From: a virus
Virus record (IMG/VR): IMGVR_UViG_3300021961_000042
Location: 32,001-96,000 of that record
DNA length: 64,000 nt
Reading direction: 5' to 3' (one strand)
Shown here piece after piece: positions 57,573 through 64,000 of this stretch (position 1 is the first letter of the stretch; every line of letters starts with the position of its first letter). A program made the position numbers and the translations under genes. The notes under the pieces were generated by a model, which saw nothing but the letters and a program-made list of their open reading frames with translations, searched no databases and was not told the DNA's origin.

Positions 57573-58412
57573 ATGTTAAGTTATATCGGTGGTAAAAGTA
57601 AGATTGGAAAGTGGATAGTTCCTTTCTATGATAAAAACATGGAGATTTATTTAGAGACCTTTGGAGGTATGTATTGGTGTTTTTATAACATGGACCTAAA
57701 ACAATACCCAAACCTAAAGAAAGTTGTTTATAACGACTTTAATCCATTAAATTATAATTTGTTTAAATGTGTGCAGAACCCATCTGAATTATTAATGGCG
57801 ATTAATTCAATAGATTGCCAAAAACAAGGGGTCGATCTTACTCCTGAAATATATAAAGAACAATTTATAAGCTTTCAGGCTGAAATTTTTAATCAAGGTT
57901 TCAGCGTAGAACCTGGCGATTATGAAGTGGCAGCCAAATACGTTTATATTCTTACACAAGTATTTAGTGGGTCAAAACCTGAGACATCTAATTTTATTGA
58001 TCTTAAAGGTAAGTACAAGTCAAAGTATCTAACATTTAGAGATAAGTTATCTAAACCTGATTGGGTTGATCATTTTTTAAAAATAACTGATGTTGAAAAC
58101 ATGGATTTTTCAGACGTGATCGATAAATACGACTCACCATCCACATATACCTATTTAGATCCACCGTATTGGAAAACAGAAAACTACTATTCAAATCACG
58201 ATTTTGATAGACAAGACCACGAAAGGTTAGCAAATGTTTTACATAATGTTAAAGGTAAATTTAGTTTGTCTTATTATGATTTTGAATTATTACATGAATG
58301 GTTTCCTGAAGATAAGTACCGTTGGGTCAAAAAAGAGTTCGCTAAGGCCGCATCTGCTAAGAAAGGAGAAAAACAAAATATGGGAGAAGAGTTATTGATT
58401 ATGAATTATTAA
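57573..58412 (+). CDS. DNA adenine methyltransferase (D12/Dam family)
   Basis: YIGGKS, ETFGG, VYNDFN, YLDPPY, LSYYD, ELLIMNY. Confidence 0.92.
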   Translation: MLSYIGGKSKIGKWIVPFYDKNMEIYLETFGGMYWCFYNMDLKQYPNLKKVVYNDFNPLNYNLFKCVQNPSELLMAINSIDCQKQGVDLTPEIYKEQFISFQAEIFNQGFSVEPGDYEVAAKYVYILTQVFSGSKPETSNFIDLKGKYKSKYLTFRDKLSKPDWVDHFLKITDVENMDFSDVIDKYDSPSTYTYLDPPYWKTENYYSNHDFDRQDHERLANVLHNVKGKFSLSYYDFELLHEWFPEDKYRWVKKEFAKAASAKKGEKQNMGEELLIMNY

Positions 58413-61902: not shown

Positions 61903-62252
61903 CAAATGAAATAGAAAAAAATATTGTACCAGATCATGTAGTTGATATTTTTAATAAAAAATATGAATTATATCCTTGTTTTACCCAAACAAGGAATGTA
62001 ACATTAGAAGCAATTGATGTATTGACAAAAAAAAATAAAATATTATGGTTTTACAAGATACATAATGATAATTTTTTAATAAGAGAAGCTTTAATAGATT
62101 ACAGTAGTCTTTACAAAATAATGATCTATGTTGAATCTAAAAAAAATGAAAAAGTCTATAAATTAGTTATACTTTCACCAAGCGAAGTGACAACTAACAT
62201 TGACTTACTAATAAAAGGATTAAATAAATTTTTTACAATTGATAAAATATGA
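61899..62252 (+). CDS. hypothetical protein
   Basis: ATGA coupling on both sides. Confidence 0.7.
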   Translation: MTNEIEKNIVPDHVVDIFNKKYELYPCFTQTRNVTLEAIDVLTKKNKILWFYKIHNDNFLIREALIDYSSLYKIMIYVESKKNEKVYKLVILSPSEVTTNIDLLIKGLNKFFTIDKI

Positions 62253-62533
62253 AAGTAAGTGTAGTTTTTACAATGAAAGGTTGCCCACATTGTACAACAA
62301 TAAAAGAAGAATTAAATAAACAAAATATACCTTTTATTGAAAGAGATATTGACGAATATCAAGAAGAATATGAAGAATTTTCAAAGGCAACACAAAATGA
62401 TTATGTACCTGCACTTATGTTACTTACTTTAGATGAAGAAGAAAATGCAACAAATATTAAATTACTTGCGCCCGATAGAGACTTCAATGACATATATGAG
62501 GGTATTGAACTTATAAAAGAATACCTTTTATAA
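62249..62533 (+). CDS. glutaredoxin / NrdH-like protein
   Basis: FTMKGCPHCT, YVPAL. Confidence 0.85.
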   Translation: MKVSVVFTMKGCPHCTTIKEELNKQNIPFIERDIDEYQEEYEEFSKATQNDYVPALMLLTLDEEENATNIKLLAPDRDFNDIYEGIELIKEYLL

Positions 62534-63397
62534 GAATATCAAATCTTTAGTGTTATGATAATTTTCCCAAATTTGGTTAGATCCATTTTTTAGATAATCA
62601 ATCGTATCTATTTTTGATAAATCAAATTCTTTTTGTAATCCTCCGATTGTAAAATCAAAATTATCTAAAATTAAACTTTCTAAAAAATCTTTTTTGGTAA
62701 TATCATTTTGAATTTTAAAATTAATTGACTCATTATCTATCTTATCTAATTCTAAATTATTAGAAATTGATAATTTTATGTTATTACAAAAACCCCTATT
62801 GAAAAGATTATAAATAATTTTATTTGCTAAAACATAATAGTATTTAACACCATTATTAGATAATCCATAAAATTTATCAGATTGATAAACCTCATATGAA
62901 AAATTACTCTTATAAAAAGAATAATTTTTTGTAAGATCACCAAAAATAGAGTCATCATATAACTTAATAGACTCAACATCATAATGAACCGATTGATTGG
63001 TTTGGTCAACTTTCATAAACACATCATAACCATCTTTATTAAGTTGATTAGAAATACTTTGAAATTTCTTTATACACCTAAATTCTTTTTTACCAAAGGA
63101 AAAATTAATGTGAAATGTTTCTGAATTTATGTTTTTAGAGTAAGTGATTAAATCAAAAACCTTTACACTTTGATCAGGTTTTCCACAATAATCTCTATAG
63201 AAATTTTTAAATACTTCAGATATTTCTATTATATTAGTTGATGATGTAAAACCTTTAACAATAAAAAAACTCCTGACGTTAATAACAGTAATTTCTGTTT
63301 TTGCGTCAGGAGATTTCTTATCAATTTCTTTTACAACTAATTCGGCTAAAATATTACATAAATTTTTCCCTACTGAGAAACTTGAAACTTCAATCAT
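62528..63397 (-). CDS. degenerate S-adenosylmethionine synthetase (MetK)-like protein
   Basis: By-eye similarity to the MetK N- and C-terminal domains; catalytic motifs absent (see findings). Confidence 0.55.
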   Translation of the reverse strand: [289 protein letters not shown]

Positions 63398-63463: not shown

Positions 63464-63604
63464 TTATTTCTTATTGTAATACTTTTCTACTATGTGTTGT
63501 ACTGCAGACTTAACCGATTCGTTATTTTGTTGTGTTGTCTGTTGAGTCTGAACAGGTTGTTGTGCCTGTTGACCATTGTTTTTATTTTTGCAACCGCATC
63601 CCAT
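63464..63604 (-). CDS. 46-aa protein beginning MGCGCK (absent from ORF track)
   Basis: MGCGCKNKNNGQQAQQPVQTQQTTQQNNESVKSAVQHIVEKYYNKK; minus-strand TATTTAT within palindrome 63634-63647. Confidence 0.65.
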   Translation of the reverse strand: MGCGCKNKNNGQQAQQPVQTQQTTQQNNESVKSAVQHIVEKYYNKK

Positions 63605-63689
63605 GACTAATATTTTTATAGGTTTATTTTATATATAAATATTTATAATGTATGATTATTCATTTGTAAACATAAACTATTTATAAAAT

Positions 63690-64000
63690 ATGAGTTTAAA
63701 TTCCTTAATTAAAAAAATAATAAAAGAAGAAACCGAAGAGTGGGTTGACGTTAGTCCTGAAGAATATAAAGAACTTTTGGATTATGTTAATGGTGATGGT
63801 TCTATTATTAAAAGACTTCCTGATTATGCTGGTAAAAAAATTAGAATTACCGGTGAATTAGATCTTAGAGGAAAAGAAAAAGTCACAAATATAGATAGTA
63901 TTGATTTAGTACAAGGTGATTTAGACATCAGTTATACTAAAATTCCATTTTTTGATAAAAATAAAGTAAGAGGTAGGTTAGATTATTGGGGTTCTGAAAT
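63690..64000 (+). CDS. hypothetical protein with leader (runs out of the window)
   Basis: MSLNSLIKKIIKEETEEWVDVSPEEY...ITGELDLRG...VQGDLDISYTKI; TATTTAT at 63678. Confidence 0.7.
   Translation, partial: MSLNSLIKKIIKEETEEWVDVSPEEYKELLDYVNGDGSIIKRLPDYAGKKIRITGELDLRGKEKVTNIDSIDLVQGDLDISYTKIPFFDKNKVRGRLDYWGSE

What the first reader, a model, noticed from the sequence alone, without database searches (positions are those of the whole stretch)
62528..63397. Catalytically dead MetK (SAM synthetase) mimic
Seen and compared from memory with E. coli-type Met[43 protein letters not shown] parallels [73 protein letters not shown] parallels FSG..[50 protein letters not shown]..IWE parallels [22 protein letters not shown]..PWE. 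The GHPDK, GAGDQG and GGGAFSGKD motifs are missing, and at 289 aa the protein is about 100 aa shorter, apparently in the central domain, yet the ORF is intact. Established: MetK is an oligomer with active sites at subunit interfaces; type I RM and BREX need SAM; phage T3 SAMase lowers SAM and binds MetK. Inference: a pseudo-enzyme that joins or poisons host MetK oligomers to tune SAM, or a MetK fold repurposed for another role. The phage's own two methylases need SAM, so timing would matter.
Basis: inference. Interest (0 to 1): 0.75.

Follow-up and report, generated by a model that had tools for sequence, protein, structure and literature searches.

The report
Phage MetK-fold protein, not a synthetase
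A large uncultured phage encodes a conserved protein with the three-part fold of the enzyme that makes S-adenosylmethionine but without that enzyme's catalytic residues; it follows a tiny cysteine-bearing peptide gene on the same strand, so it looks like an old enzyme fold put to a new, still unknown use.

Summary
Window 62528-63397 (-) is an intact 289-aa ORF. Its AlphaFold model (pLDDT 87.6) matches SAM synthetases over its whole length (VIA Z 20.1; Foldseek E 5e-13), and the next fold scores Z 5.9. Sequence similarity appears only with a broad family profile (hhalign P 1.3e-4).

None of 14 MetK catalytic or ligand positions is kept, and the gating loop with GAGDQG and the GGGAFSG loop are deleted. 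The gene is not decaying. It has at least 164 homologue clusters, nearly all viral, a median dN/dS of 0.14, and polar motifs of its own.

New findings:
- It is the distal gene behind a 46-aa peptide gene (MGCGCK…KIVEKYYNKK). The pair is adjacent in 62 of 62 main-clade loci.
- In other lineages a ~350-aa protein of unmatched fold lies between the two genes.
- Some lineages lack the whole central repeat.

I read it as a repurposed MetK fold that works with phage partners. The MetK-poison idea is untested and looks unlikely, because the phage keeps two SAM-dependent methylases and the MetK shape is not conserved. The function remains unknown. First readers flagged this family in another genome too.

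The parts
62528..63397 (-). MetK/MAT-fold protein of 289 aa. It lacks all mapped MAT catalytic residues. Family motifs: G10-x-N12-L-C14-N15; G49-x-T51; D82-x3-Y86; S173-[DE]174-x2-Y-G178-x-S180...K185-x-Y187; S241-x2-L-D245-x-F247.
   Evidence: ORF. Model. Fold matches. Family and conservation. Catalytic-site mapping. dN/dS 0.14.
63464..63604 (-). 46-aa basic peptide gene, first gene of the presumed operon. It has an invariant N-terminus MGCGCK, a variable Q/N/T-rich linker and a conserved amphipathic C-terminus (...KIVEKYYNKK).
   Evidence: Present upstream on the same strand in 62 of 62 main-clade loci. Alignment A2 has M1-K6, V39, K41, Y42, Y43, K45 and K46 invariant. At least 705 clusters in the protein collection. 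In 45 of 60 other viral loci a MetK-like gene follows it. pI 9.4.
63605..63689 (.). Divergent intergenic region. It holds a conserved AT-rich element (AAATATTTATATA...ATAAAC, window 63622-63647, minus strand) about 30 nt before the peptide ATG, and a mirrored TATTTATAAAATAT towards the divergent gene. A promoter is presumed.
   Evidence: Sequence. Conserved across 27 aligned loci, including the remote lineage L105. The composite pattern is unique in the window (1 match against 0.02 expected). The generic sigma-70 scan was uninformative.
62249..62533 (+). Glutaredoxin-like gene (94 aa, CPHC). It converges on the MetK-like gene and overlaps its 3' end by 6 nt. Context only.
   Evidence: Pfam PF00462, E 4.5e-11. 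It is the convergent neighbour in most lineages.
63690..64000 (+). Start of a 394-aa gene of unknown function (cluster 'c1', which runs past the window's end). It is always divergent from the peptide gene and is followed by a ~250-aa gene ('c0'). Context only.
   Evidence: No Pfam, PHROGs or PADLOC match.
57573..58412 (+). Dam-type DNA adenine methyltransferase, a SAM consumer and context only. A second methylase (N6_N4_Mtase) lies about 3.4 kb beyond the window's end, at L073:4752-5600.
   Evidence: tblastn matches to annotated DNA adenine methylases. PF01555, E 1.8e-32, for the second methylase.

Best explanation
The gene encodes a virus-specific, very old offshoot of the S-adenosylmethionine-synthetase (MetK/MAT) fold that no longer makes SAM.

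Shown:
- All three MAT repeats are present as a trimmed core.
- Every mapped catalytic, metal, triphosphate or methionine position is substituted or deleted.
- The family is under purifying selection and keeps its own polar motifs in repeats 1 and 3.
- The central repeat is dispensable in some lineages.
- The gene follows a conserved 40-55-aa basic peptide gene on the same strand (N-terminal Cys-Gly-Cys, flexible Q-rich linker, C-terminal amphipathic helix). A conserved element lies upstream of the peptide gene.
- In many lineages an acidic ~350-aa protein with no structural match lies between the two genes.

Inferred:
- Three of the four conserved motifs sit at the sequence equivalents of MetK's substrate-binding segments: the N-cap of helix 1, the strand before Gln98, and the loop before the C-domain helix. 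The remnant of the substrate cleft has therefore probably been rebuilt as a new binding or catalytic site.
- The protein most likely acts together with phage-encoded partners. The most plausible arrangement is that the peptide's helix docks on the acidic protein and presents the Cys-Gly-Cys end to that site.
- It probably does not act as a decoy subunit of host MetK.

The biological output of the module is not known. A thiol or metal theme, given the convergent glutaredoxin, is speculation.
For: - Fold.
- Weak but collinear sequence homology.
- Loss of 14 of 14 MAT positions and of the active-site loops.
- Purifying selection: median dN/dS 0.138 over 75 pairs, against 0.146 for the glutaredoxin and 0.060 for the Dam methylase.
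- Own conserved polar residues across 188 sequences and in remote members.
- Two-repeat 231-aa forms keep those motifs.
- Virus-only distribution: 71 viral loci against one short 30%-GC contig binned in a 50%-GC MAG, and none in 50,697 GenBank phage records.
- Peptide adjacency in 62 of 62 loci, and order and strand kept in 45 of 60 loci of other lineages despite inserted genes.
- Conserved element upstream of the peptide gene.
- Charge complementarity: pI 4.9 and 4.2 for the two proteins against 9.6 for the peptide.
Against: - No direct evidence that the protein binds the peptide or any ligand.
- Much of the synteny may reflect common descent of one large phage group, since c1 and c0 are equally constant.
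- 15 of 60 peptide loci show no MetK-like gene within 4 kb.
- In the main clade the ~350-aa gene sits elsewhere without a peptide, so the three genes are not an obligate unit.
- The residue mapping rests on a 53%-probability profile alignment and is uncertain in the central repeat.
- Conserved polar residues could be structural or interface residues rather than a ligand site.
Confidence: 0.5

Rival explanations
1. MetK decoy or poison subunit. The protein uses its MetK-like flat sheet to hetero-oligomerise with host MetK and lower or retune SAM synthesis, helping the phage escape SAM-dependent defences such as type I restriction-modification or BREX.
For: - MetK fold over the whole length.
- No catalytic residues.
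- Precedent: the phage T3 SAM lyase inactivates E. coli MetK by forming heteropolymers (PMC8406200; bioRxiv 10.1101/2023.02.27.530186; PDB 8bb1 listed).
- No genuine MetK in this record or in five long relatives.
Against: - Only 8-14% identity to MATs in the structural alignments.
- None of the 14 invariant MetK active-site positions is kept. From my knowledge that site lies at the dimer interface.
- Lineages with the central repeat deleted keep the family motifs, so MetK's interface shape is not under selection.
- The phage keeps two SAM-dependent DNA methylases within about 5 kb on either side.
- The gene travels with phage partners.
- Binding could not be tested and the host is unknown.
Confidence: 0.12
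2. Non-enzymatic structural or scaffold protein. The MetK-derived alpha/beta sandwich serves as a building block, for example in virion or assembly machinery or an intracellular phage structure, and the conserved residues are protein-protein contacts.
For: - Single repeats of the model resemble ring-building and baseplate alpha/beta modules at low Z (4.5-5.9).
- The gene is core to a large phage group with fixed synteny.
- No recognisable nucleotide-binding motif.
Against: - The region holds methylases, a glutaredoxin, a PcfJ-like protein and a GNAT, not structural genes.
- The conserved positions are small polar or acidic residues (N, S, D, G, Y) clustered at the equivalents of MetK's substrate segments. 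That pattern is more typical of a ligand site.
- The sub-domain matches are generic.
Confidence: 0.2
3. Still a SAM- or adenosine-related protein with a rebuilt site. For example, a binder or carrier of SAM, SAH or adenosine that serves the two flanking phage methylases, or an adenosyl-transfer enzyme with a different nucleophile, conceivably the peptide's cysteines.
For: - Ancestry from MAT.
- Conserved placement between two SAM-dependent methylases in the main clade.
- Conserved acidic and hydroxyl residues at cleft-equivalent positions.
- A co-encoded peptide with two invariant Cys.
Against: - Every mapped Lys, Arg, His and Asp that binds triphosphate or Mg2+ is gone, and the phosphate loop is deleted.
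- The methylases are not adjacent in other lineages within the flanks examined.
- No ligand test was possible.
Confidence: 0.12

Closest known systems
Bacterial S-adenosylmethionine synthetase (MetK/MAT; Pfam PF00438, PF02772, PF02773), e.g. PDB 5h9u, 4le5, 7r3b, 6rjs
   Same: - The same three-repeat beta-alpha-beta-beta-alpha-beta architecture over the whole chain (Z 20.1 and 19.7; TMq up to 0.73).
- The order of elements is collinear.
- Faint sequence echoes: C14-N15 against the C-D of GHPDKxCD, the FDLRP-like helix, and the C-terminal W-E.
   Different: - About 100 residues shorter.
- 8-14% identity and no Pfam match.
- 0 of 14 catalytic or ligand positions kept.
- The gating loop with GAGDQG, the GDxGLTGRK region and the GGGAFSG loop are deleted.
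- The family has its own conserved motifs.
- It is virus-restricted.
- Some members have only two repeats.
Archaeal MAT (e.g. Methanocaldococcus jannaschii, PDB 7p82)
   Same: An example of a MAT so diverged from bacterial MetK that sequence similarity is marginal while the fold is kept. It matched the model at Z 15.8 over 260 residues.
   Different: From my knowledge, archaeal MAT keeps the catalytic chemistry and full length (about 400 aa); this was not tested here. The phage family keeps neither the mapped catalytic residues nor the length.
Phage T3 SAM lyase (SAMase), which binds and inactivates host MetK
   Same: A phage protein that acts on the host SAM economy through MetK.
   Different: No SAM-lyase chain appears among the listed fold matches. 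In PDB 8bb1 the matching chain is A, and the entry also contains a SAM synthase. No evidence here of MetK binding or SAM cleavage.
Uncharacterised 208-aa protein A0A6J5L9B3 of an uncultured Caudovirales phage (BFVD)
   Same: The only viral predicted structure that matches the model (E 2.4e-8, TMt 0.64). It is probably a member of the short, two-repeat branch of the same family.
   Different: No annotation or function, so it adds distribution but no mechanism.

Membership tests
S-adenosylmethionine synthetase (MetK/MAT) | Three intertwined beta-alpha-beta-beta-alpha-beta domains (the MAT fold) | tested here: met
   Model with pLDDT 87.6. Foldseek E 5.4e-13 and probability 1.00. VIA Z 20.1, 19.7 and 15.8, against 5.9 for the next fold.
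S-adenosylmethionine synthetase (MetK/MAT) | Matches to the Pfam S-AdoMet_synt_N, _M and _C models above the gathering score | tested here: not met
   No Pfam family even at E<=10. PF02773 was not found in the viral record, although the same model rings in 10 control genomes.
S-adenosylmethionine synthetase (MetK/MAT) | GHPDK motif (His14, Asp16, Lys17) | tested here: not met
   The aligned positions are variable (D/S/V), Lys (147 of 188) and Asn (172 of 188). They are invariant H, D and K in 26 real MetKs.
S-adenosylmethionine synthetase (MetK/MAT) | Gating loop and GAGDQG (Asp118); Lys165; Asp238, Arg244 and Lys245 | tested here: not met
   A 35-aa deletion removes the loop and GAGDQG. Asp238 lies in a 15-aa deletion. 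Lys165 becomes G/N/K, Arg244 becomes E/D, and Lys245 becomes I/V. The alignment is of low confidence in the central repeat.
S-adenosylmethionine synthetase (MetK/MAT) | Triphosphate loop GGGAFSGKD...PSKVD (Lys265, Lys269, Asp271) | tested here: not met
   The 11-aa loop is deleted. Lys265 becomes Leu (144 of 188), Lys269 is deleted, and Asp271 becomes E/I/V. Family-wide, no invariant Lys/Arg/His set exists.
S-adenosylmethionine synthetase (MetK/MAT) | Catalysis of ATP + Met -> SAM; dimer or tetramer with active sites at the interface | not testable with these tools
   Needs an enzyme assay and SEC-MALS or a solved structure.
   Host unknown.
   Lineages with 231-aa forms lack the whole central repeat yet keep the family motifs. 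The central repeat is the least conserved part.
Phage SAM lyase (T3 SAMase type) | SAM-lyase fold or sequence | tested here: inconclusive
   No SAM-lyase chain is listed among the fold matches, and there is no PHROGs match. Absence from a list is not proof.

The most novel reading that the evidence does not exclude
The MetK fold appears among the solved-structure matches here only as SAM synthetases. In phages it may have given rise to a second functional family. The system might modify, load or use the peptide's N-terminal thiols, as a phage-encoded peptide cofactor, carrier or RiPP-like product, perhaps linked to the adjacent glutaredoxin.
Probability: 0.15. Interest if true: 0.85.

Novelty: new variant of a known kind. 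Interest (0 to 1): 0.62.

Why it matters
Every significant listed solved-structure match to this model is a SAM synthetase, which suggests the fold is normally tied to one function.

A widespread, virus-only family under purifying selection keeps the fold but has replaced the whole catalytic apparatus, and it can even drop one of the three repeats. If confirmed, that would be the first clear case of this fold being reused.

It also gives a concrete, testable system: a two- or three-gene cassette with a conserved Cys-Gly-Cys peptide. For phage biology, it separates two ideas. One is manipulation of the host's SAM supply, which is attractive but unsupported here. The other is an unknown phage-internal function.

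The ~350-aa partner protein is a confident model with no structural match. It is a candidate new fold.

Tried and rejected
- Single-sequence and 40-sequence profile searches (Pfam, PHROGs, PADLOC, PDB sequences) gave nothing. A marginal DUSP16 rhodanese hit (E 0.008-0.02) covers the poorly conserved central part and is contradicted by the fold, so I treat it as chance.
- hhalign in global mode gave junk. With the narrow profile, local mode was not significant.
- The ESM Atlas gave no usable hit.
- There was no match in 50,697 GenBank phage records by DNA or protein.
- The literature searches found no described MetK-like phage pseudoenzyme and no paper on DUF7196.
- The peptide's weak Pfam hits (DUF7196 at E 0.079, and others) are below threshold.
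So binding, oligomeric state and expression were not tested.
- The remote-member alignment was too diverse for the search for related loci, and two single remote queries found nothing.
- The generic sigma-70 and terminator scan was uninformative (19 sites against 15.5 expected). The short promoter-like word is not enriched in the window.
- Folding the ~350-aa partner gave a confident model but no structural match (Foldseek best E 0.53; VIA best Z 3.9).
- Its neighbours in the main clade (a lysozyme with LysM, and DUFs) gave no clue.
- Host identification failed. The best relatives are uncultured huge phages. The one 'bacterial' hit is a 30%-GC contig binned in a 50%-GC Aquiluna MAG, probably a mis-binned phage contig.
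- Two unpublished genomes (G002, G019) returned were left out of the MetK alignment.

Full report
**1. The observation**

Window 62528-63397 (minus strand) is an intact ATG-initiated ORF of 289 aa. Direct sequence searches do not recognise it. There was no Pfam family even at E<=10, no PHROG and no PDB sequence, and a 40-sequence family profile did not reach MetK.

The fold settles the question. An AlphaFold2 model built on 40 homologues is confident (pLDDT 87.6, pTM 0.87) and consists of three beta-alpha-beta-beta-alpha-beta units. Foldseek against the PDB returns 167 matches at E<=1e-3. Every listed match is a SAM synthetase or a complex containing one, and the best is 7r3b_A (E 5.4e-13, TMq 0.70). 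An independent aligner run against 48,161 representative chains gives Z 20.1 (285 of 289 residues), 19.7 and 15.8 for two bacterial and one archaeal MAT. The next, unrelated fold scores Z 5.9.

With a broader profile that includes 22-30%-identical remote members (A5), a sequence signal appears. hhalign gives one collinear alignment of 10-288 to MetK 16-391 (P 1.3e-4, probability 53%). Six of the nine sub-threshold PDB hits are SAM synthetases.

**2. It is not a SAM synthetase**

I used that alignment and 26 genuine MetKs taken from genomes (two unpublished genomes were excluded). I tabulated 14 positions that are invariant in the real enzymes and that established MetK biochemistry assigns to catalysis or ligand binding. 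That assignment is my own knowledge, in E. coli numbering.

None is retained across 188 family members:

| MetK position | In the phage family |
|---|---|
| His14 | D/S/V |
| Asp16 | Lys |
| Lys17 | Asn |
| Glu42 | T/S/K |
| Gln98 | Asn |
| Lys165 | G/N/K |
| Arg244 | E/D |
| Lys245 | I/V |
| Lys265 | Leu |
| Asp266 | Ser |
| Asp271 | E/I/V |
| Asp118, Asp238, Lys269 | fall in deletions |

The roughly 100 missing residues are seven deletions:
- the gating loop plus GAGDQG (35 aa),
- GRFVxGGPxGDxGLT (15 aa),
- MARHGGGAFSG (11 aa),
- four shorter ones.

They are therefore mostly active-site loops rather than the central domain as such. Independently of any alignment, the family has no invariant Lys/Arg/His set that could hold a triphosphate. 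The mapping is least certain in the central repeat.

**3. It is a functional, virus-specific family**

There are 164 clusters at 90% identity with E<=0.01, all about 255-295 aa and all 'hypothetical'. A search of every representative protein gave 72 clusters at 50% identity. In DNA collections the family appears at 71 IMG/VR loci. Among 185,579 prokaryote genomes it appears only once, on a 6-kb, 30%-GC contig binned into a 50%-GC MAG. It is not found in 50,697 GenBank phage records.

The window belongs to a 105.6-kb viral record estimated at 35% complete. Relatives reach 292 kb at 99% completeness. Neither this record nor five long relatives encode a genuine MetK.

Median pairwise dN/dS is 0.138 over 75 pairs. 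That is similar to the neighbouring glutaredoxin (0.146) and looser than the Dam methylase (0.060).

The family keeps its own polar signature:
- G10, N12, C14, N15;
- G49, T51;
- D82, Y86;
- S173, D/E174, G178, S180, K/R185, Y187;
- S241, D245, F247;
- D/E285.

By the profile alignment the first three groups lie at the equivalents of MetK's GHPDKxCD helix cap, the strand before Gln98, and the loop before the C-domain helix. This suggests, as an inference, a rebuilt site in the old substrate cleft. I could not inspect model coordinates to confirm the geometry.

**4. The fold is not being kept as a MetK look-alike**

Several lineages carry 231-232-aa versions. These lack the whole central repeat (window residues about 100-168) yet keep N15, GxT, DxxxY, S-[DE]-xx-[YH]-G-x-S and SLxLDxF. 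Cys14 is Val in most of them. The central repeat is also the least conserved part of the 289-aa forms. A decoy that must slot into a MetK dimer would be expected to keep the three-domain flat face.

**5. Context and a new finding**

In the main clade the gene lies in a strongly syntenic block. On the plus strand upstream are a Dam methylase, an LRR protein, a PcfJ-like protein and a glutaredoxin. The MetK-like gene and a small ORF then lie on the opposite strand. After them come c1, c0, a DUF3310 protein, an N6_N4 methylase, a protein with a weak DHH match and a GNAT.

Directly upstream on the same strand (window 63464-63604) is a 46-aa ORF. It has an invariant MGCGCK start, a variable Q/N/T-rich linker and a conserved ...KIVEKYYNKK end. 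It is present in 62 of 62 loci, about 51-84 nt before the MetK-like start. Its termini stay nearly invariant where the MetK-like proteins are only about 30% identical. A conserved AT-rich element lies about 30 nt before its ATG, even in a remote lineage.

The peptide family is larger than the MetK-like family, with at least 705 clusters. I examined 60 further peptide-bearing viral loci with enough downstream sequence. Of these, 45 have a MetK-like gene downstream on the same strand. It is either adjacent or follows one or two copies of a ~330-375-aa protein. The other 15 have the peptide and that protein but no detectable MetK-like gene within 4 kb.

The ~350-aa proteins are one family (A6). 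They are acidic (pI 4.2) and have no Pfam domain. The model is confident (pLDDT 93.1) but matches no solved structure. In the main clade this gene is encoded elsewhere, without a peptide. The three genes are therefore associated but not obligatory partners. Part of the association may reflect common ancestry, because c1 and c0 are just as constant.

**6. Interpretation**

Firmly supported:
- The protein descends from MetK.
- It has lost the mapped MAT catalytic positions and active-site loops.
- It is conserved and restricted to viruses.
- It follows the Cys-Gly-Cys peptide gene on the same strand.

Inferred: a repurposed cleft that works with phage partners, most plausibly the basic peptide (pI 9.6) on the acidic protein (pI 4.9). 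I put about 0.5 on 'repurposed and acting with phage partners', and within that perhaps a third on direct peptide binding.

It is disfavoured by the points in sections 2-5 and by the two SAM-dependent methylases the phage keeps nearby. A purely structural role gets about 0.2, and a rebuilt SAM- or adenosine-related site about 0.12.

The precedents for phage interference with MetK are the T3 SAM lyase papers (PMC8406200; bioRxiv 10.1101/2023.02.27.530186). I found no paper describing a MetK-fold phage protein.

**7. Limits**

Binding, oligomeric state and expression are therefore untested.

First readers of this scan flagged the same stretch in an overlapping window (e1-5995311) and the same family in another genome (e1-5727840). 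Neither note had been followed up.

Noticed in passing
window 63464-63604 (-); L001-L072 and L105-L188: A widespread family of 40-59-aa phage peptides (at least 705 clusters). They have an invariant MGCGCK N-terminus (a Cys-x-Cys motif), a Q/N/T-rich linker of variable length and a conserved C-terminal helix ...K[IT]VEKYYNKK. Some lineages carry a second, tandem copy that lacks the C-terminal helix (L016, L020, L021, L033, L036, L050, L051, L063).
   Followed up: partly
L130:4206-5297 (+) and alignment A6; in the main clade G032:C1:260225-261343: A ~330-375-aa acidic protein family that follows the peptide gene in many lineages. The AF2 model has pLDDT 93 but no structural match in the PDB (best VIA Z 3.9, Foldseek E 0.53), so it is a candidate new fold. 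L115, L122, L129, L131 and L157 carry two paralogues in tandem.
   Followed up: partly
L115:6349-7044, L130:5365-6060, L136, L148, L150: Two-repeat (231-232 aa) versions of the MetK-like family that lack the whole central repeat. The single BFVD match (A0A6J5L9B3, 208 aa) is probably of this type.
   Followed up: partly
window 63690-64000+ and L073:1690-3673: Two genes of unknown function (c1, 378-604 aa; c0, ~250 aa) are divergent from the peptide gene in every lineage examined. They have no Pfam, PHROGs or PADLOC match.
   Followed up: no
L072 (CAZGNP010000036.1): A 6-kb, 30%-GC contig with this phage gene block is binned in a 50%-GC Aquiluna MAG. This is probably a mis-binned phage contig rather than a host clue.
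   Followed up: partly
window 62528-63397, residues 30-38: PDAKTEITV in the first repeat matches the PDGKTQVTV strand of MetK's central repeat (hhalign local hit). This may be an echo of the internal triplication of the fold.
   Followed up: no
L073:5637-7451 (G000 99637-101451): A conserved 604-aa protein with a weak DHH-domain match (E 0.0018, below the cut-off), a few genes from the cassette. It may be a RecJ-like nuclease or phosphodiesterase.
   Followed up: no
G034 and G036 (relatives holding L056 and L031): IMG/VR classes two of the long related records as 'provirus', which is unexpected for jumbo-phage-like genomes of 214-229 kb.
   Followed up: no
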